A DNA stretch of 64,000 nucleotides from Podarcis liolepis. Its lineage: Eukaryota. The stretch lies in NCBI GenBank assembly GCA_965112155.1, contig OZ218109.1; one strand, given 5' to 3'. How positions within the stretch are numbered: position 1 is the stretch's first letter; the number at the start of each line of letters is the position of its first letter. Made by a program: the position numbers and the translations under genes. Below, in pieces: positions 7,656-43,459 of this stretch. The notes under the pieces were generated by a model, which was not told where the DNA came from, did no database searches, and was given only the letters and a program-made list of their open reading frames with translations.

Positions 7656-7942
7656 AACAGCAACCATACACAGACATTTAAAATGTCATCTGCAAAGTGG
7701 CTGTAACATGCCAGCCAGTCGCACTAGAATTACTTTAGTATGAGGCTTCAAACAGGTGGCCATATGAAACTGCCTTGTTCTGAGTTCAGCGTATTGTCTG
7801 CTGCACTGGCGTGCCTCTCCAGGGTCTCGGACAAAGGATGCTTTCCTACCTGTCCTGCCAGTGCCAGGGATGAAACCTGGGACCTTTCGCATGCGAAGCA
7901 CGTGCTTTAGTACTGACACTTTCACTTTGCACTTCACTAGCA

Positions 7943-9382
7943 CAGTGTTTCCCAACCTTTTTTGGGCAAAGGCACACTTGTTTCATGAAAAAAATCTCGA
8001 GGCACACCACCATTACAGCCCCGTGACGTCAGCGCGCAGCGTCACGCCGGGAGGGACATGAATTGCTAGCAAATTACATAATCACCTCCTTGAGGGCTGG
8101 CTCATCTTCTCCGAAGGCAGAACCCCATTAATTAACAGCACAGACTCACACCATAGCCAAGACGAGGGGGGAAAACCTCAGTCATGCACAGTCATGCACA
8201 TGTGGGGGCTAAATGAGGACGAAGACCGGGCAGAGAGCAGGGTTCAAATCACCCCACCTGGCCAGGACAATCCCTGGGTGCTCCCTTGGGCCACTCGCCT
8301 GACCCACCTCGCAGGGCTGTTGTTGCGAGGATAACATGGGGAGAACCACGCGCGCCCCCGGGAGCTCCTTGGAGGAGAAAGCGGGCGATGAATGCAATGC
8401 ACGAAATATATGAGAGGCGACCAGGTTTTGCAGGTGAGGGGCCCCCGCCAGCCTCCGCTTCCAACACCCGGCACAACGACGCTGAAGTTTCCCCCCGTGC
8501 TCGGCTCGGGGAGCAGCGCTGCTCCCCCCCCCGGCTCCCCTTCGCCCTCCCGGCTCTCTCTGCCGCCCACTGGGGACCCCCCTCACCTGCCAAGTCCGGA
8601 GCGCCGGTGAAAGTTGCATGCATGCACGCAGGGCGCCGCGTTGCCATTGCATTGCACTGCACTCCATGCAACGCCTGCACGCATGCATTGCCTTGCACGC
8701 CCGCCAAGGGGTCTCCCCGCGGTCCGATGCGTCCCCTCCGGCGCGGATGCAGCATTGCAAAAATAAAACCCCCCCGACGCAGCCCTACCTGGGGGGCAGC
8801 CTTCGCCTCCGCCGCTCCGCCTCCGTGGGGATCCCCGGGCTCCATCCTGCCGCCCGATCTCCGCGGGGGCGCAGGCAGGCTGTGCGGGGTCTGCGCGGAA
8901 GAGCCCCTGCCCGTCCGGCCGCCGCCGCTGCGCTCATTCCATGGCCGGGAGAAGAGCGCTTCAAACAAAACGTCCGGCCCGCCAGGCCACGCTGGGAAAC
9001 GTAGTTCGTGCACCCCGCGCGGGCGCGGAGCCCAAGGGCGAGGGGACTACGGATCCCGGCAGCCTCCACGCCGGGGATGGAGGGGGAGAGGCCGGGTGCA
9101 GGGATGGAGGGACGGGTGGGCGAGCGAGTGAGTGAGTGGCAGCCGCCAAGCCTTGGCCGAGAGCCAGGAAGGGCCTCCCTGGAGGAGGAGGAGGAGGAGG
9201 GAGGCGCAGAGCGGGAGGGAGGGAGGGAACCCCAGGGGTCATCTAGTGACGGCGCCCCAATCGAAAATTTGACTTTTTTTAAAAAAAAAAAATCTTTCGA
9301 TTTTTTTAATTTTTCCCGCGGCACACCAGGCAACATCTCGCGGCACACTAGTGTGCCGCGGAACAGTGGTTGGGAAACACTG
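7943..9382. mobile_element. Non-autonomous hAT (Buster/Charlie-type) DNA transposon carrying about 1.18 kb of GC-rich cargo (Pack-TIR-like)
   Basis: Perfect 15-bp TIR CAGTGTTTCCCAACC...GGTTGGGAAACACTG; perfect 8-bp TSD CACTAGCA (7935-7942, 9383-9390); subterminal GGCACAC repeats; no transposase ORF. Confidence 0.93.
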
Positions 9383-9583
9383 CACTAGCATATGACAGGC
9401 ATAGTCTTTGTTTCTAACAAGCTTTGATGGTATTAAGGAATTGGCTTTCAAATTGCAATATTGGGAACTAAAAGCACAAAAAGCAGACCCCCAAATTACC
9501 ATAGAATAACCAGGCATCAAGTCACTAAAGAAAATGCACCAGATCCCAAAGTTGGTAAGGTTCCACGGAAATTCATATTGTAC

Positions 9584-10181: not shown

Positions 10182-12413
10182 GTAATCTTAAAAATCTTAT
10201 TGACCAGGCCCTTAACCCCTGAAAAACAAAACTGTAAATCTCTTTCAAGGGACGATGCAGAGTGACAATGCCCACCTAAATTAGACAAAGCATTCTACAG
10301 TTTAATCATCTTCTAGAGCAATACACACACACACACTTAATAATAATGATGATGATGATGATGATAGTAACTGGTTTAAAGTGGATGTCTCCATTTCACT
10401 CAATGAAGTCAACAACTGGTGTCTCTATTTTTTTCTTTAATGAAGTTCAAAACTGGGAAAGAGTGGAACTTTTGCTATGGGAAATCCTGGCTAAAATTTG
10501 AATTCTAAGCTTAAAATATATGAGTAACTATTGAGCCTTTTGGGGGATTATAATGGACCTGATAATCCAGCAACTAAACTGCTCAACTGGACTGGACTGG
10601 ACTCCATTTCTAACCTCACTGACCTATGGTTAATGGGTACTAGTCATATTGCTATTATTGGTTGTTGGCATTTAATATATGTTAGCTACCAATTGCCAAC
10701 AGTGTTGTTAACTGTCCAGAAGAATTTAACAGTGTACGTTCTGAGCCTTTAACAGAGATTTGATATAAAGAAATAGGTAATCATAGCTTTCATGTGATGA
10801 AGTAAAAAAATATTGCCTGCTGATTCATGGGTTAGGCACCTCTGGCCCTGCAGATATTGTGGGGACTGCGACTCCTGTCCCTCTTGACTAATGGACATAT
10901 TGTCGGGGGTTGATGAAGCTTGATAGACAGCCACAGCTGAATTAGCTGGTGTAGTTCTATGAATGTGCGACCCAGAAAATAGGCACAGTTGCAATTTAAC
11001 ATGCCAGAGGGTAAGGTGAGTTAGGTGGGGAAGATCTGTTATGCCCCAGAGCTCTTGGATTTGTGGTGGGGGCATCATACTGCCATTTTATATTATGGTG
11101 CCTAAAGCTGGGTTCTTTTCTCGGTCAACCATACACAATATAATTATATGACTTAAATGACCGTTCCTTGGTATTTTCTTGTCAGTTGTCATACTTAAGC
11201 AGGTATGGGCTCTTGCCAACAACACTGTAACTTGACTCCCAACTCCCAGCAGCCCCAGCCAGCATGTCCAATCATTTTAGCCCCTATAAAGAGCTATACA
11301 CAGGTCTCTGTGGCTGAGATGTCCATGCTAAACACAGGAGACCTGTGTGACTTCAGGGTCCCTTTAAGCTCGCAGACTCCCTTTGCACAAGTAACACAAG
11401 AGGTTGAGTCGACATATAACTAATTATTCTTATAAGAACTGTACGTTTAAACATAATATGTCTGGCTGGATTTGTGTTCATTCTCTTTAAGTATTTAACC
11501 TGTGAAAAAAAGTATGTTTATTTAGTCCAAAGCTTAACGTTCTGCTTCATTAGGTTACCAATATTTAACTCTAAGCAGACAAACAAGTTTTTAACTACAC
11601 AGGAAATGTTTAGCAAGAACTAAAAAAACAAAAAACCTAAAGGGAGTATCTTAAGTACAGCTGGCTGGGTTTGTTTAGATTTCACTGAACAATACTGTAT
11701 TATGCAGATAGTTTCTGTCTGAACGAGCCCAATAAACCAAACAGATTTAGTTAAAGGCACAGAGGTCCTTTACCTGTGGGTATCAAATATTACAAGGAAA
11801 GAAACTGTTCATGTTTAGCAGTGGAGTCAAGAATACTTTATGTTGATGGCTGAAAGGGACAGTGATGATTCTGAATCACACTGTGTACTTGTGAGAGTTA
11901 ATTTTTATAAGAAGTGCAGAAGTCTAAGCCTGCCCAGAATCCCTAATCTCGGTGTTTGAAGCCCTGCTTAATGAATGAGGCAAGCTCTGGTTAGTCATTT
12001 GTACAGGTAGTTGACTCTGCACATGCATAGAGCCACACTTTTATTATTACTTCACATGTTCCAATGAAAGAGCAATAAATCCAGTTTTCTAGGAAATGAG
12101 TACAAAGGTTATCTAATAAATGACAAGCATATATTTTAAACACATATTCATTTTTTTACCGTTCTCAAGCTTCCCCAAACTAGCGCTTAATGCCAGCCAG
12201 ATGTTGCAGACTACAGCACCTGTCAGTCCAGCATGGCCAATGGGTCAGGGATGATGGTCAGATGAGAGTACATCTGGAGGGCTTTGACATGGGGTTTACC
12301 CTTCCCTACCCAGATACAACAGAAGGCTTATTTTCTCTTGGCTGGAATAGCTGGTTTCCTTGAAGCCTAATTGCACACAGGGAGATGGAGTTGGCAGCCC
12401 CCCTCTCCTAGAA

Positions 12414-13091
12414 CAGTGTTTTTCAACCTTTTTTGGGCAAAGGCACACTTGTTTCATGAAAAAAATCACGAGGCACACCACCATTAGAAAATGTTAAAAA
12501 ATTTAACTCTGTGCCTATATTGACTATATATAAAGTAATTCTCTTGAATAGGAATCAAATAAACACAAATCAAATAAACACAAACACTTAACATCAGTGG
12601 TGAGATTCAAAAATTTTAGTAACCACTTCCGACATTCAACACTTAACATCAGTGGTGAGATTCAAAAATTTTAGTAACCACTTCCGACATTCAAGCATGG
12701 TTTAATATTTTTTTCTCTAATGGCAAACAAAAACGTTGCGGACCGTTCTCTGCTCAGCGGGGATCGATCCGCTGATCCCCGCTGAGCCAGCGGATGACAG
12801 CTCCGTCTCCGCACTGTGTGCGGAGAGGGAGATGTCAGAGCCCCGCTGCTCTCTATGGGGAATCGGATGAGAGCGGACCGCCTGTCCGCTCTCATCCGAT
12901 CCCATCTGATCTCATCCCCACCCAGGACGGATGGAAAATAGGGTGGACACAGTCCGGCACCCGCCTAGTGGGCGAAAATGTGACATTATTTTTTAAAAAA
13001 ATCTTTCGATTTTTTCAATTTTTCCAACGGCACACCAGGCAACATCTCGCGGCACACTAGTGTGCCGTGGAACAGTGGTTGAAAAACACTG
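12414..13091. mobile_element. Non-autonomous hAT element, same terminal family as 7943-9382 but with a different interior
   Basis: Perfect 15-bp TIR CAGTGTTTTTCAACC...GGTTGAAAAACACTG; perfect TSD TCCTAGAA (12406-12413, 13092-13099). Shares the first 73 bp and last ~125 bp with 7943-9382. Confidence 0.93.
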
Positions 13092-13190
13092 TCCTAGAAC
13101 ATCACTCCGCCTCTGTTGCAACTAGGCATCCGTTAGGGGCCATGGGGCAGAAACTACACTTAGGCTGCAATCTAGGAGTAAGTCCCACTG

Positions 13191-13568: not shown

Positions 13569-13854
13569 TAAGTCCCACTGAACTCAGTGGAGCTCGCTTC
13601 TGAGGAGACACATATAAAATTTTACTATAAATGTAACATTTACCACCTGGATGGGCCTGGATTTCTTGAAGAGCTCTTGTATCCATTACAGTCTTGGTCC
13701 TTAAAATTTGTTTTAATTTGTTGGAAGCCGCCCAGAGTGGCTGGGACAACCTAGTCAGATGGACAGCATACACATAATTTATTGTTGTTATTGTTACAGT
13801 TACCTGTCTTTATTTCAGTTAGCACTGAAATGATCTGAACATCTTGTCAACCCA

Positions 13855-14052
13855 TTTCAAATATATGGGTTATATATATTTCAAATATATGGGTTATATA
13901 TATTTCAAATATATGGGTTATATATATTTCAAATATATGGGTTATATATATTTCAAATATATGGGTTATATATATTTCAAATATATGGGTTATATATATT
14001 TCAAATATATGGGTTATATTTATTTCAAATACTGTATATGGGTTATATATTT
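13855..14052. repeat. Minisatellite with a 24-bp unit TTTCAAATATATGGGTTATATATA, about 8 copies
   Basis: Direct tandem copies; source of the spurious YFKYMGYI ORF. Confidence 0.95.
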
Positions 14053-14561
14053 GTGCCACAGGCACTTGGAAGCATTTCCCACATTCTCCACATGGTGGCC
14101 AAAAAATATTGTTTCAGCCTTAACAGTTGCTCATATGTGCTTCATGTACCTGCTACATTACTAGAGAATTAGAGTAAGATTCAAATGTTATATTACATAG
14201 GGCTGCCATACATCTGGGATTCATTCATCAGAACGTAATTCTCAAAAATTGGTTAAAATTTCTGGGGAAACCGAGCCATATGGCAGCCCATATCAGAAGT
14301 TCAACAACTTTTGTGTCCGGATGTTCACTTTTTGAAATATGGCAACCCTATACTCATAGAATTTCATTCCTTCGCATATTTTTGCCTGCCAACCTTTGTT
14401 ATATTTACAAATTGAACTATTGCCCTGTAATTTACTGTGTGCGGTGACTTCCTTAAAAGTAAGAGTAATTGAGAGCTAAGATGTTCACATGTAGAATGTT
14501 GTCATTCTTTCTGAGAGTAAAATAGAAAAAACTCAAAGTATCACTAATACTTTCTTTACAG

Positions 14562-27849: not shown

Positions 27850-28860
27850 GGCCAATCGTTGTCCAGCTGCCCCTGCGAGAGGGACCAATCCCGTTTAGGG
27901 AGGAGGAGAAGGGGCGGGGTCGCTTCTCGAGGGCTCACCTGCACCTGCTTCCTTGTTGACTGAGCATCAGGTGCACCGCTCAGACCTTTCGAGGAAAGTG
28001 AGTCGGGCGGGTGGGATTCCCTCGCCACGAAAAGCGCGAGAGAGAGAGAGAGAGCTGGCTCCCTTACAGCGCGGCCGCTCTTTCCCAAGCGCCCCCCACC
28101 CCCCAGCTGCTCGCGGTCGTCCCTAGAGACGGCTAGCTGAAAGGCCGGCTTCCGACGGCGGATTGTTCTTCACCTGCGAAAGTTGGCGCTCCCTTTTGGA
28201 GCGGGCGGGCGCCGGAAGGAGGCCAAGTTCCCTGGCTCGCTCGCTCGCTCGCTCTCAAGAGTCAGCCTGTTGCTGCGGCAGCGAGTAGTTCCCTCGGAGA
28301 AGGAAGCCCAGGTAACGACGCTCTCGGCGAGAGGATGGACTGACTCCCTCCAGCACCGCGCCTGCTCTCAGGAGGAAGAAGAAAAAGAAGAAGAAGAGAC
28401 GCTCCTCCGGCGCACAGGTGAGAGCCCACGAGAACGCGCCTTCGCTCGCTTTCTCCTCAGCCGGCAGGTGCTCTCTTCAACAGGTGCCCGGCAAGAGCCC
28501 TCTCCGCCTGCGTCTCGCGCGCTCCCGACCTGGAGGGGTGGGGTGGGGGTGGGAATCTGCCCAGAGGCGCCCACCTGTCGCGCAGGCTAAGGGCGCGCGC
28601 GCTGCTCACCTTGCACGAGCGCACCTTGCATGCAGCATGAAAGGCAAGGGGGAGGGGCGCGCCTGAGAGGCAGGCGGGCGGGAGGGGGGCTTCCTCAGCC
28701 TGGTCAGGGGGAGGGGGAGCAGCAGGCAAAAGATGCTGCGTGGGCGGGCGCGGAGCTGGGCTGCCACCTCCTTCTTGTCAGCTGCCCTAAGTGTGGACGC
28801 AAGGGCGCTTCAGCGTGGCTGAGGCGGAGCAATTGGGGATTTTCTTGCCTTCGCACGGTG
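27850..28860 (+). promoter_or_regulatory. PRR15: CpG island, probable PRR15 promoter and non-coding first exon (candidate donors CAG|GTAACG at 28311/28312 and CAG|GTGAGA at 28417/28418)
   Basis: High GC/CpG, GC box GGGGCGGGG at 27911-27919, and plausible donors. It is the only CpG island between the CHN2 3' end and the PRR15 coding exon, which begins with a splice acceptor. Confidence 0.7.
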
Positions 28861-28948
28861 AGTTGCGTGGGACTTATTCCCCAAAAAGTGTGCATGGGAT
28901 TCTATCTATCTGTCTGTCTGTCTGTCTATCTGGTTTATAGATTTATTA

Positions 28949-29175
28949 CAGTGGTACCTCAGGTTACAGACGCTTCAGGTTACAGGCTCCGCTAACCCAG
29001 AAATAGTGCTTCAGGTTAAGAACTTTGCTTCAGGATGAGAACAGAAATCGTGCTGCGGCGGCGCGGCAGCAGCAGGAGGCCCCCATTAGCTAAAGTGGTG
29101 CTTCAGGTTAAGAACAGTTTCAGGTTAAGTACGGACCTCCAGAACGAATTAAGTACTTAACCCGAGGTACCACTG
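28949..29175. mobile_element. Tigger/pogo-like MITE (family also at 43218-43459 and 46329-46551)
   Basis: TIR CAGTGGTACCTC...GAGGTACCACTG, TA TSD, CAGGTTAAG repeats. Confidence 0.9.
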
Positions 29176-32100
29176 TACTATTTACAGATTTATTACCTTT
29201 ATCTTCCAAGGATCTCAAGGTGGTGTACATGGTTCTCCCTCCTCATTTCATCCTCACAAAAACCCCTGTGAGGTGAGGCTAAGGGATGGTGACTGGCCCC
29301 AAGGTCACCCAGTGAGCTTCATGGCTGAGTGGGGATTTGAACTCTGGCCTCCCAAGTGATAGTCCAGCACTCTTAATTTATTCCTGCATTGCAGGGGGTT
29401 GGACTAGATGACCCCTTGGGTCCCTTCCAGCCCTTGCGGTTCTACGATTCAATCCCAAAGACACGTGCCGTGAACTAACAGTGCCGTCCTGTACATGTTT
29501 GCTCTGAGGAAAGCCCTGTTGATTTCAGTGGGACTTGTTGCTAGCTAAGTGTGTACAAGATTGCAGTCCAAGGCTGCAATCCTGGGTCATATACTTGGCG
29601 GCAAGCCCCACTGAAGACATCTGGGCTTTCTTCTGATTAACGGTGCATGGGGTCAGTTTTATAATCCCGCTGAATGAACTTAACGGGAACTACGTCTGAG
29701 GGTCCCGGTACACTACTGTAATCTCTGAAGAGCTCTGAAATGGAGGGTTGCTATTTACACATGCACACACCCCTTCCCCCCCTTTCTGCATAATAGGCAG
29801 AAATCCAACAGGCTTTGTTTTTCCTCCAGTAGCTCTGGATTAAGTAACTGGTAAAGGACAATCCTAAAGAAGCATGTGTATAGCAGGCGATGCAGTTTGG
29901 GGATTATAGCTCTGCTATAAAAAAAAATCCCCAGTTTCACCCCACCTTTCAAATTAGCAAAATGTTGACAGCTAAGGGTTATCTAGCCATAAAAAATAAC
30001 CCCAGTTATAAAGTGCATTTTTCTGCTGTGTCCTCAGTTGCACCTGCTGAGTTGTTTCCTTGCACAGTACAGGTGCAACTTGGGCCCTCCAGCTATGACT
30101 TGCAACAAGCTTAATTAACAAACGCAACAAAGAGCTGCTACCTCAGTATCCAAGTCCTGCTGGAAAGGGGGCCGCCACTATTAGATAAATGTTGCAATTA
30201 ACCGTTCCAAAAAATAAAATAAAAAAAAGCTTAGTTTATCACTTTTACCTGCTGTTCGAAGGAACCTGCCTAATTCTGGTCTTTGCAGCAATTCAGTGAG
30301 TTGCATTCTGCTCGATGGATTCTACGTGTACAAAATATTACACGCTGTGGGTGAATTCCTGGCCCTAGTGCAACCAGTATGAATGTTCCATCATTCAACA
30401 GAGCAAGAATGTTTTTTTGCTTCACAAGCAAGCAGGAAACTTCTCAGAAATGAAAGCATGTTGAAGATTTAGGAGAGAGTTTCTAAAGTGCCTGGCCCTA
30501 CCTGTCATGATCATCAGTTTATGATGACAAACCATAGCACTGTTTGTGTGATAAGGCTGCGCAAAATCTGAAAGCTCCCTTGTAGGAAGGAGCAAGGTTT
30601 GCCTTTCATTTCCTTATCAAGCTGAAGGAACACCACCAGTGAACTTTTACAGAAACATTCATAGCTGGCTTGTGCAGCTGCATGGAGAAGAACCACTTAT
30701 GTAGTGACTCAGCCGATGTGTGCACAAAACAGAAAACCAGTGAGTTAAGTTTGCAGAACGGAAGGGGCATGCATGTGACTGTCTCCTCCTAGCAGTTCAA
30801 CTCCCAGGGTGAAGTTGTTCTAGGAAATTAATCCTCAAACTCCATGTCACAGAGCCATGATAGCTAAATTGAACCTCCATGTTCAGAGACAGTGTACTAT
30901 TATTTATTAACATCTCACCCTTTGTCATAAGATACCCCCAGGATGGGTATATATATATGTCTGACTTCCAGGTCCTGGGAGAGAGAGAAAAGGAGTAGCC
31001 ATTACTATTGTGATTTTTTTGAATATTTCCTTAAGGTATCTGCCTGTCAATTATTGGAACTAGATGGACAACTGCATTTAAGTCTGATCAGACAGTAGGC
31101 CACAATTAGGGAGCAAATGAGATCTACAGTACATGTATCTGGTGTCTGTATGCCTTCAAGGAATGCATTAAAAGAAGTTCCGAAAGTGCAGAAAAATGAG
31201 CTATATTTGTGCCATGCATTCAAAGGGAATGGAGAAGAGAAGAAACAATCCCAACAAAACACTGATAATTGGGTATATCTGATTATGCAGATATGCTGAA
31301 ACTAAATTATAGAATATATTTTTAATTCTGTCTCTTCTACTTTGAATCAAAATTTGCTCTGCACGCGAAGGCTAGGTATCAACTGGCTCACAATCCATCC
31401 TTATCCATGTTTACTTGGAAGTTGGGGTACTGAGTTCAGTGAAACTTATGCTGAACTGCAGTTTTCTGCTCACTCAGTTTGGGTGGTTTTGGCCTAAGAC
31501 CAAATCATTTTGTTCCCATTGTTTGCTGTGAACAACATACCAATGCAAAATTCACAAACCTGAAAAGTTAACATTTCAATCCCACTTAGCAAATTTTTGT
31601 AAGCTGATGGTGCTAAACTTTGCTGCAAATGTTCAACTATAGCTGGACTTGTCAGGAGGTACTGCTGGATCAGAAACCCAGTGTACTGGAAATACCACAA
31701 GTCTCTGTTTAAATCTTCAAACCAAAGAAGCTTTTGATGAATTGTGCTAAGCAACTGAATTCTTGGTTGCTTAGCCAGTCTTGGAAAGGTTTAACTACTG
31801 CTAATGACTTCATTAGTACAAAAGAAGGTTATGCAGTGTGGAAAGGTTTTAACTCTCCAAAGCATTCTAGATGAATTAAAGTTTGCATAGTTTCCTCACC
31901 AATGTGCTTAGGAATGGACACAGTTCCTATCCTATGAAATCTATCAACAGTAGCAGGTTGAGAACAGCTGAGTCCCGCTCAATCTTCTGTCTGTATCAAG
32001 GAGTAAGTCCCATTAAATTCAGTGGAACTTACTTGTGAGAAGACATGTGTAGGCTGCTGAAGCAAAGATGATAAGACACTGACAAATTGTCTTAATGCAA

Positions 32101-35246: not shown

Positions 35247-35822
35247 ATCTCCCTCTTGCTTGGAGGGGAAGGGTTATATCAATGTTAGTCCTACTCCGGG
35301 TAGAATTATAGAACTGTAGAGTTTGAAGGGACCACAAGGATCATCTAGTCCAACTCCTTGCAGTGCAGGCATCTTTCGCCCACAACCCTGAGATTAAGTC
35401 TCAGGCTCAAAGGAGCTATCCTTCAGGACCTCTATGAACCAAAACGTTTTTGGCGCAGCCTTTGTGGGGGGGGGGGGAGGAAAGCCCAGGCCTCAAGAAA
35501 GCCCTGGCGTCACAATTTGGAAGCGAGTAAATAATAAAATAAGATGGAAGTGGAGTCTCTGCGTATGGTTACGATGACCCTCTTAGACAGTTCCTCCAGC
35601 GGAGCCTACTAATTGCGCTCTGTGCGCCCGATGTCTCCCGCACCCCCTTAAATGTCTCCTTCCTACCGCGGACCCCAAGTCGGTGAGGGCTCCAGTTCCT
35701 GCCACTAAACAAGCCTCCCTCCTCTCTGTCCCCCCCTCCAGGCCACCGGCCCCGAGTGCAGCGCATCGCCCAGGACCCCCTGACCGGGAAGAGGCGCGCG
35801 GGCGCCTCCTGCCCTCCGGAAG

Positions 35823-36206
35823 ATGGCCGAAAGCGCCGGCACGGCCGCCCCCTCGACGGGGCCCGCGGCCAAAGGCGGCTCCTCGGGCGCCTGGTGGAAA
35901 TCGCTGACCAGCAGGAAAAAGCCCAAGGAATCGCCAGCGGCTGCGTGGCCTCCTCGGCAGGTGCCTGAGCCCTCGGAGATGCTCCCCGCCGCGCCCAGCC
36001 CCTCGGACTCTCAAGAGAACCAGCAGCCCAACTCGGGCAGCCGCCGGAACCTTAAGATCTCCCGCTCGGGCCGCTTCAAAGAGAAGCGGAAAGTGCGCGC
36101 CACGCTGCTGGCGGACAGTCCCCAGCAGCTCTTCGAAGGGGCGCCGGGAGCCGCAGCCGGGAACCCCGCCCCGGCGCGCCCCGCCGAAGAGACGCCGTGC
36201 CAGTGA
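35823..36206 (+). CDS. PRR15: Proline-rich protein 15 (127 aa), single coding exon; exon acceptor ctctctgtccccccctccag| at 35741/35742
   Basis: Family motifs WWKSLT-RKK and [22 protein letters not shown]; good Kozak context (aagATGG); located downstream of CHN2 as in mammals. Confidence 0.95.
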
Positions 36207-43217: not shown

Positions 43218-43459
43218 CAGTGGTACCTCGGGTTACAGACAATTCAGGTTACAGACACTTCAGGTTACAGACTCTGCTAACCCAGAAATAGTACCTCGGG
43301 TTAAGCACTTTATTTCAGGATGAGAAAAGAAATCGTGTGGCAGTGGCACGGCGGCGGCGGGAGGCCCCATTAGCTAAAGTGGTGCTTCAGGTTAAGAACA
43401 GTTTCAGGTTAAGAATGGACCTCCAGAACGAATTAAGTTCTTAACCCAAGGTACCACTG
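43218..43459. mobile_element. Tigger/pogo-like MITE
   Basis: Same family as 28949-29175; TA TSD. Confidence 0.9.

What the first reader, a model, noticed from the sequence alone, without database searches (positions are those of the whole stretch)
12414..13091. Sister element with the same ends, co-varying TIRs and an unrelated interior
Seen in sequence: the first 73 bp and last ~125 bp match 7943-9382, including the 3' palindrome CGCGGCACACTAGTGTGCCG(C/T)G, but the interiors share nothing. The TIRs differ by compensating changes at both ends (TTTCCC/GGGAAA versus TTTTTC/GAAAAA), and each element has its own perfect TSD. Inference: these are two independently mobilised subfamilies, so short termini are sufficient for mobilisation and the interior can be swapped. 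That is the behaviour expected of a cargo-carrying vehicle family.
Basis: partly seen in the sequence, partly recalled or inferred. Interest (0 to 1): 0.7.

Follow-up and report, generated by a model that had tools for sequence, protein, structure and literature searches.

The report
Lizard jumping gene steals gene promoters
The flagged element is mostly a trimmed-down copy of an ordinary jumping gene, but its neighbour and many sister families carry the on-switch region and first exon of host genes, likely picked up when one end of the element hopped past them, and the family has spread to about 2,900 places in what is likely a lizard genome.

Summary
In detail: B (12414-13091) and A (7943-9382) share ends, have their own 8-bp duplications and unrelated interiors. 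Both belong to a young Buster-type hAT family with 2,899 exact left ends; intact 626-aa transposase copies survive. The reading needs splitting. B is mostly a deletion derivative: 485 of 678 bp align to one TT-type transposase element. TT and CC TIRs mark lineages; mixed ends transposed too (8 of 84). A is the cargo carrier: about 1,050 bp come from a TIR-free host CpG island with a first exon and splice donor. 91 sampled copies fall into 23 interior types. Nine TIR-free donors were traced; 8 are CpG islands (13 of 224 flanks are), including 5' ends of S100PBP, PARK7 and a Lyase_1 gene. 8 of 19 cargo borders sit on Buster target sites, several against an intact inner TIR, which points to capture by hopping of the element's end and composite transposition. 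A captured exon splices into the transposase in a few RNA reads. Cargo-carrying lizard hATs (Anolis hobo_AC) and Pack-TIRs are known; the promoter bias, scale and border anatomy were not found in print.

The parts
12414..13091 (-). Element B: non-autonomous Buster/hAT, TT-type TIR (strand given is the parent's transposase direction)
12406..12413 (.). TSD TCCTAGAA, left copy
13092..13099 (.). TSD TCCTAGAA, right copy
12414..12569 (-). B 1-156: parent's 3' end (TIR, subterminal region, transposase 3' UTR), 96% to L448
12587..12770 (-). B 174-357: parent's region upstream of the transposase ATG (229-357 at 96%), with a 55-bp tandem duplication private to this copy
12771..12944 (.). B 358-531: hairpin-rich segment of unassigned source; the parent match stops inside the first hairpin, so likely parent-derived
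12945..13091 (-). B 532-678: parent's 5' end with palindrome and TIR, 87% to L448
7943..9382 (.). Element A: CC-type cargo-carrying sister, the commonest interior type (33 of 91 sampled); TSD CACTAGCA at 7935-7942 and 9383-9390
8058..8200 (.). A 116-258: interior segment, source not found
8201..9247 (-). Captured host CpG island (promoter-like region, exon, start of intron); donor G000:C13 about 2,124,345-2,125,412, TIR-free, 94% over A 259-1286
8789..8845 (-). Putative first coding exon of the captured gene: ATG at 8845, 19 codons, then CAG|GTAGG splice donor
   Evidence: sequence; coding status inferred
9241..9250 (+). Cargo border: seven bases of the target-like site ATCTAGTC followed by GAC, which fits a hAT hairpin footprint or microhomology with the end module
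   Evidence: interpretation inferred

Best explanation
B is mostly an internal-deletion derivative of a Buster-type hAT transposon, while A and many sister subfamilies carry the promoter region and first exon of host genes, likely captured when the element's end module re-inserted about 1 kb away and the outer ends then moved as one unit. Steps. (1) Shown: an intact 626-aa transposase with these TIRs is in the genome, and short ends are enough to move. (2) Shown: cargos match single TIR-free loci, 8 of 9 of them CpG islands. (3) Inferred: an element lands beside an open promoter, as Buster transposases tend to. (4) Inferred from borders: its end module, or a second copy, lands again at a TA-centred site on the far side of the promoter, and the old inner end is excised or decays. 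(5) Shown: the composite spreads with new TSDs and is trimmed by deletions. (6) Shown indirectly: dispersed copies lose CpGs fast, so most are likely methylated. (7) Weakly shown: in transposase-bearing copies a captured exon can splice into the transposase mRNA.
For: Parent: six loci with a 626-aa ORF and two with longer frames; five 4.2-kb copies with perfect TSDs. B: 485 of 678 bp covered by L448, a 3,057-bp TT/TT element with TSD AAATAGAA. Donors: 9 found in 14 searches (found; not found: 30, 50, 58, 61, 72), identities 86-98%. CpG islands: 8 of 9 donors against 13 of 224 one-kb flanks, p = 9e-9. Genes: S100PBPR, DJ-1_PfpI and Lyase_1 exons lie downstream on the strand of the captured exon. 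Borders: 8 of 19 are TA-centred 8-mers (p = 7e-6 at an assumed 6% chance). The 118-bp end module sits behind five different TA-centred sites, two of them 10 bp apart in one donor. L105 and L485 independently show the L041 left part, a new promoter and the end module. TSDs have T4 in 84 of 84 and A5 in 83 of 84, as for TcBuster, which also leaves hairpin footprints and favours start sites (PMC3499496, passages). CpG transitions 3.6% against 0.25% at other C/G in 52 A copies. Splice joint 1230|GT..AG|2132 in L189.
Against: 11 of 19 borders are not target sites; they show microhomology or filler, and one cargo has an inverted piece, which fits template switching. No free-standing end module with its own TSD in 30 sampled of 117. 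No donor still holds an element, so the two-insertion intermediate is not seen. At one counted border the donor reads TGTCAGAG, not TA-centred. The palindromic bases at the A and L052 borders also exist in the partner end, so they can be plain microhomology. One donor (L238) is not a CpG island. The cargos searched were my pick, not a random draw. The splice joint rests on 2 reads and 1 contig from runs whose transposase differs at many sites from L189. B 358-531 is unassigned.
Confidence: 0.72

Rival explanations
1. Cargos were copied in by template switching during gap repair or at stalled forks (the Pack-TIR gap-filling and FoSTeST models), with no insertion at the donor; open CpG islands are simply the most available templates.
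For: 11 of 19 borders show microhomology or filler; L085 holds an inverted donor piece. Donors hold no element today. Tan et al. propose this route and report high GC in multicopy Pack-TIR cargos (PMC8277862, passages).
Against: It does not predict intact TIRs abutting TA-centred donor 8-mers (GCCTAGGG, GGTTAAGA, CGTTACTG, GGCTATGC), nor two such borders 10 bp apart in one donor. It probably explains secondary trimming and recombination.
Confidence: 0.2
2. The CpG-island bias comes mainly from selection among elements: capture is unbiased, but GC-rich promoter cargo keeps an element accessible or supplies transposase expression, so those subfamilies amplify.
For: All 18 CC-type representatives have a CpG-island-like window; CC/CC copies outnumber TT/TT 71 to 5; a captured exon splices to the transposase.
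Against: Subfamilies with only 5 copies also carry CpG islands. Copies decay at CpG 14 times faster than at other C/G. Shared GC-rich end modules can produce the island call. This can act together with the best explanation.
Confidence: 0.25
3. One reading: B itself is a vehicle with swapped foreign cargo, and its TIR changes are compensating.
For: B 358-531 aligns to none of the transposase-bearing loci compared; left and right TIR types are associated.
Against: 72% of B aligns in order to one parent; the sister B'' continues into the transposase stop region; 8 mixed-TIR copies have perfect TSDs; a pattern for a TIR-free donor of the hairpins gave 0 hits.
Confidence: 0.1
4. All interiors are deletion derivatives of one autonomous parent.
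For: True for B and for L056, L074 and L145 in large part.
Against: A shares 177 of 1,440 bp with transposase elements; nine cargos map to nine separate host loci on six contigs.
Confidence: 0.02

Closest known systems
hobo_AC hAT families of Anolis carolinensis (Novick et al., PMC3014272; passages read)
   Same: Lizard hAT with shared ends, family-specific centres, incorporated genomic DNA, two TIR groups, recombinants with mixed ends, and cargo in autonomous copies too.
   Different: Cargo there is described by old TE fragments; the words promoter, exon and CpG occur 0 times in the main text. Here donors are traced, mostly to CpG islands, and borders are resolved. Whether the two transposases are related was not tested.
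Pack-TIRs of animals (Tan et al., PMC8277862; passages read; supplements not read)
   Same: TIR element with an internal duplicate of a TIR-free host locus; hAT is the commonest carrier; multicopy cases favour high GC; one frog hAT holds a CAPSL 5' UTR piece.
   Different: They found 4 multicopy cases among 370 in 100 genomes, the frog example with 3 copies, and propose template switching. Here many cargo subfamilies have 5 to an estimated 1,000 copies, with target-site borders.
Bat Helitrons with captured promoters, e.g. HelibatN3/NUBPL (Grabundzija et al., PMC4778049; passages read)
   Same: Promoter, first exon and splice donor amplified genome-wide (15 genes, 4,690 copies); the transposon favours CpG islands.
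   Different: Rolling-circle end bypass, not cut-and-paste. Chimeric host transcripts were shown there and are not shown here.
TcBuster and Buster hATs (PMC3499496 and PMC12637253; passages read)
   Same: nnnTAnnn 8-bp TSD, 14-16-bp TIR, about 600-680-aa transposase, hairpin footprints, start-site preference.
   Different: No natural promoter-carrying derivatives in the passages read. AnBuster needed longer ends (41-64 bp worked poorly) than the roughly 70 bp shared here.
Ac/Ds macrotransposons and composite insertions of maize (PMC9910405; passages read)
   Same: Ends of two nearby hAT elements move the host DNA between them, enhancers included.
   Different: Rare 10-28-kb alleles in genetic stocks, against 1-2.7-kb units amplified into fixed repeat families.

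Membership tests
Buster-type hAT transposon | 8-bp TSD with central TA | tested here: met
   84 of 90 closed copies have perfect TSDs; T4 84/84, A5 83/84
Buster-type hAT transposon | Short (14-16 bp) TIRs | tested here: met
   15-bp TIRs in A, B and the parents
Buster-type hAT transposon | Single-ORF transposase of about 600-680 aa of the Buster/ZBED5/SCAND3 kind between the same TIRs | tested here: met
   626 aa; best hits are named ZBED5-like or SCAND3-like and carry PF14291. The local Pfam scan gave only a sub-threshold zinc-finger hit
Buster-type hAT transposon | Placement in the Buster clade on a tree with TcBuster and SPIN | not tested
   No tree built; the assignment rests on TSD, TIR and homolog names
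Simple deletion derivative (element B) | Interior collinear with one autonomous parent | tested here: met
   485 of 678 bp in order on L448; 358-531 and about 20 junction bases unassigned
Pack-TIR (element A and sisters) | Internal duplicate of a host locus that has no TIR | tested here: met
   9 donors
Pack-TIR (element A and sisters) | Multiple copies with distinct TSDs | tested here: met
Pack-TIR (element B) | Internal duplicate of a host locus that has no TIR | tested here: not met
   Interior mostly parental; 0 hits for a TIR-free donor of the hairpins (one pattern only)
Pack-TIR, gap-filling/FoSTeST origin | Borders inside the TE with microhomology and no insertion at the donor | tested here: inconclusive
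   11 of 19 borders fit; 8 of 19 are target sites
hAT macrotransposon / composite element | Host DNA bounded by ends of two separate insertions, with inner TIRs or footprints at target sites | tested here: met
   Intact or decayed inner TIRs next to TA-centred 8-mers in L041, L105, L485, L492, L495, L052, L129, L189
hAT macrotransposon / composite element | Two-element precursor seen at the donor | tested here: not met
   All nine donors are TIR-free in this assembly; population data were not available
Promoter-dispersing TE (HelibatN3 kind) | Dispersed copies start transcripts that splice into host exons | tested here: inconclusive
   No splice joint on A in 4 runs at low interior depth; one joint into the transposase in L189

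The most novel reading that the evidence does not exclude
A cut-and-paste transposon that harvests housekeeping-gene promoters: its mobile end repeatedly jumps across CpG islands, building dozens of promoter-plus-splice-donor cassettes, uses some to express its own transposase through an acceptor upstream of the ATG, and has seeded over two thousand such cassettes that rewire host genes in lacertid lizards.
Probability: 0.3. Interest if true: 0.86.

Novelty: new variant of a known kind. Interest (0 to 1): 0.7.

Why it matters
How TIR transposons capture host DNA is an open question (Pack-MULEs, Pack-TIRs), because donors are old and borders eroded. This family is very young (0.6% non-CpG divergence in A), has intact transposase copies and keeps readable borders, so target-site capture and template switching can be told apart by counting and rebuilt in cell culture. 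Multicopy Pack-TIRs were reported as rare in animals; here they are the bulk of a 2,900-copy family. Hundreds of copies of real promoters in new places are a natural experiment on whether CpG-island sequence resists methylation away from home (the CpG decay says mostly not). They may also mislead read mapping and promoter annotation in these genomes.

Tried and rejected
PF14291 search of the genome: 17 hits, none with these ends in its fetched flanks. Negative-class pattern at A's 5' border: 5 of 5 hits were A copies. No donor for L045 (30 loci examined of 40 scored, 88 candidates), for L097 (20 loci plus L421), for the first part of the L129 cargo, or for the GC-rich part of L189. The L107 interior is a nested second TIR family, not single-copy host DNA. 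B hairpin donor pattern: 0 hits. I first thought B's hairpins were a foreign, amphibian-like repeat (recalled resemblance, untested); dropped after one search showed they begin inside the parent's upstream region. No Pfam hit near the L085 or L129 donors on the strands scanned; the L238, L490 and L496 neighbourhoods were not scanned. A KRAB box lies 17 kb downstream of A's donor on the same strand, but no link to the captured exon is shown. Run search: no holder on record as RNA was listed. RNA laid on A: interior depth up to about 22 per mate direction, no splice joint. A 20-nt piece of the loose-end consensus upstream of the transposase acceptor was in none of the loci held then. Free-standing end module: 0 of 30. 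Literature: nine answered searches listed no paper on this family or on promoter capture by a lizard hAT; one search was too loose to count, the library lacks most subscription papers, and Repbase/Dfam could not be searched. The look-up of earlier scan notes gave 2 unrelated notes.

Full report
Observation. B (12414-13091) and A (7943-9382) are as described: own 8-bp TSDs, 15-bp TIRs differing at positions 9-10 (TT against CC), shared first 73 and last 97-120 bp, unrelated interiors. Both are repeat families. Of 40 candidates scored, 17 were full-length B-type and 40 were full-length A at 95-100%. The 33-nt left end occurs 2,899 times exactly, the control 0 times. The genome is likely a lacertid lizard: the transposase is 98% identical to a Podarcis muralis UniRef protein.

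Family survey. I took 91 of the first 100 listed left ends on contig C1 (two were skipped as already seen, seven were not fetched). They fall into 23 interior clusters, A-type being 33 of 91, which scales to roughly 1,000 copies (estimate). One had no right end in the stretch held. Of 90 closed copies 84 have perfect TSDs, with T at position 4 in 84 and A at position 5 in 83, the nnnTAnnn pattern of TcBuster (PMC3499496, passages). Among the 84, TIRs are CC/CC 71, TT/TT 5, CC/TT 5, TT/CC 2, TC/TT 1. Mixed ends therefore transpose, and the covariation reflects subfamily descent.

Parent. One copy held a transposase C-terminus. Searching with it found loci with long open frames: six encode a 626-aa protein and two a longer frame. 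Five are 4.2-kb elements with perfect TSDs, four of them about 99.7% identical. Relatives are 85% identical in Xenopus laevis, 93% (partial) in Rana, about 80% in fishes, 82% in a tunicate and 81-87% in a spider, which suggests horizontal spread (inference; no tree). The transposase runs opposite to the window's + strand.

B is mostly ordinary. An N-terminal search gave 11 close loci, two of them degraded TT-type elements. L448 is a 3,057-bp TT/TT element with TSD AAATAGAA; B 1-156, 174-226, 229-357 and 532-678 align to it in order, 485 of 678 bp. The hairpin segment 358-531 is unassigned, but the parent match ends inside its first hairpin, and a pattern for a TIR-free donor gave 0 hits. The window copy has a private 55-bp duplication. 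B is best read as a deletion derivative.

A and its sisters carry host DNA. Only 177 bp of A align to transposase-bearing elements (L450 left out because it holds a nested copy). A pattern at A's right border found a TIR-free locus, C13 about 2,124,345-2,125,412, matching A 259-1286 at 94%. It is a CpG island with an ATG, 19 codons and a GTAGG donor. In 14 donor searches I found 9 TIR-free donors: for A, L105 (96.8%), L189 (90%), L129 (96.3%), L052 (98.1%), L135 (86%, gapped), L085 (92-94%), L485 (98.2%) and L492/L495 (95%). Five searches gave none. Eight of nine meet a CpG-island test (400 bp, GC at least 0.55, observed/expected at least 0.65) against 13 of 224 one-kb insertion flanks (p = 9e-9). 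The cargos were my pick. Downstream exons name three genes: S100PBPR domain, E 2e-8; DJ-1_PfpI positions 1-29 (below cut-off) and 129-164, i.e. PARK7; five Lyase_1 exons, which I take for fumarate hydratase from a recalled N-terminus. A's gene is unnamed; a KRAB box lies 17 kb on.

Borders. Of 19 cargo borders with a donor, 8 fall on a TA-centred 8-mer; in one of these only the element has the TA. A 118-bp end module with both TIRs (117 hits) follows five different TA-centred sites plus one deletion variant, and never stood free in 30 loci. Twice, in L105 and L485, the L041 left part ending ACTTAAG is followed by a new promoter and then the module. In the C3 donor the module abuts two sites 10 bp apart, GGTTAAGA and CGTTACTG: two landings in one island. 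Three borders (A right, L105 left, L052 right) keep seven of eight target bases plus palindromic bases, as hairpin repair would leave (recalled for Hermes; footprints of this kind in PMC3499496), though microhomology fits too. The other 11 borders show microhomology, filler or an inversion.

Mechanism. Most likely an element lands near an open promoter, its end module or a second copy lands again about 1 kb further, the inner end is excised or decays, and the outer ends move the promoter as a composite that is later trimmed. Spread and donors are shown; the two-insertion step is inferred, as no donor still holds an element. Template switching is the main rival and probably accounts for the trimming.

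Function. In 52 A copies CpG transitions run at 3.6% against 0.25% at other C/G sites, with 0.6% non-CpG divergence: young copies, likely methylated. RNA laid on A showed low interior depth and no splice joint. On autonomous L189 the ORF was covered on one strand from about position 2130 in two bulk runs, and a GT..AG joint linked the captured exon (1230) to an acceptor at 2132, 178 nt before the ATG, in 2 reads of one run and 1 contig of another. 68 reads of that run enter there from other upstream letters, and the transcribed copies differ from L189 at many sites. So cargo can feed the transposase, but dependence on it is not shown.

Known systems. Anolis hobo_AC already shows shared ends, foreign centres, two TIR groups and mixed ends (PMC3014272, passages), with no mention of promoters, exons or CpG. 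Pack-TIRs are defined, but multicopy ones were 4 of 370 (PMC8277862, passages; its supplementary species lists were not read and may include lizards). Bat Helitrons amplify captured promoters by another mechanism (PMC4778049, passages). Maize Ac macrotransposons give the composite route (PMC9910405, passages). Nine answered searches listed no account of this family; repeat libraries could not be checked.

Verdict. Observation confirmed, reading partly supported. The flagged element is ordinary; the family it points to is a new variant of a known kind, a Pack-hAT biased to promoters with readable capture borders. Interest 0.70.

Noticed in passing
L281-L303 (e.g. G000:C5:63918272-63919981) and nested in L107: A second TIR family with ends CAGTGGCGTAGCGTGG...TACGCCACTG, at least 30 copies, with GC-rich interiors and inner end remnants; it may capture cargo the same way.
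   Followed up: partly
L189:1939-2132: Inside the autonomous element, an inner TIR, a possible short native exon with donor GCA|GTAAGA and a strong acceptor upstream of the ATG; the transposase could act as a gene trap.
   Followed up: partly
L196:5600-5660, L208:1500-1530, window 29270-29290 and 35310-35360: A common lizard repeat motif GGGTCATCTAGTCCAACC contains the target ATCTAGTC; two cargos end exactly there and the same 8-mer recurs as a TSD.
   Followed up: partly
L105 (G000:C1:31.09 Mb), L230, L383, L450: Elements of the family sit back-to-back or nested in one another with shared or adjacent TSDs.
   Followed up: no
L207 (G000:C262) and L205 (C7:93.53 Mb): The same A copy appears on an unplaced contig amid (CCCTAA)n telomeric repeats; the L045 subfamily has four telomeric units at its cargo border.
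   Followed up: no
L324, upstream of the Lyase_1 gene promoter (G000:C14 about 55,725,600): A tRNA-like sequence close to the donor promoter (by eye, not scanned).
   Followed up: no
window 35820-36206 (+): GC-rich ORF of about 128 codons starting [19 protein letters not shown], ending in a basic, proline-rich tail; looks like a compact host gene exon, unrelated to the elements.
   Followed up: no
window 28150-28900: A genuine-looking CpG island with splice donors, followed by a CAGTGGTACCTC-ended MITE at 28947-29180 (sisters at 43232 and 46327).
   Followed up: no
window 13830-14055: 24-bp AT-rich tandem repeat, about 9 units, nearly perfect.
   Followed up: no
P0001-P0045: Transposase relatives at 77-93% identity in frogs, a newt, snakes, fishes, a tunicate and a spider: a likely widely transferred Buster lineage; whether it captures promoters in those hosts is open.
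   Followed up: no
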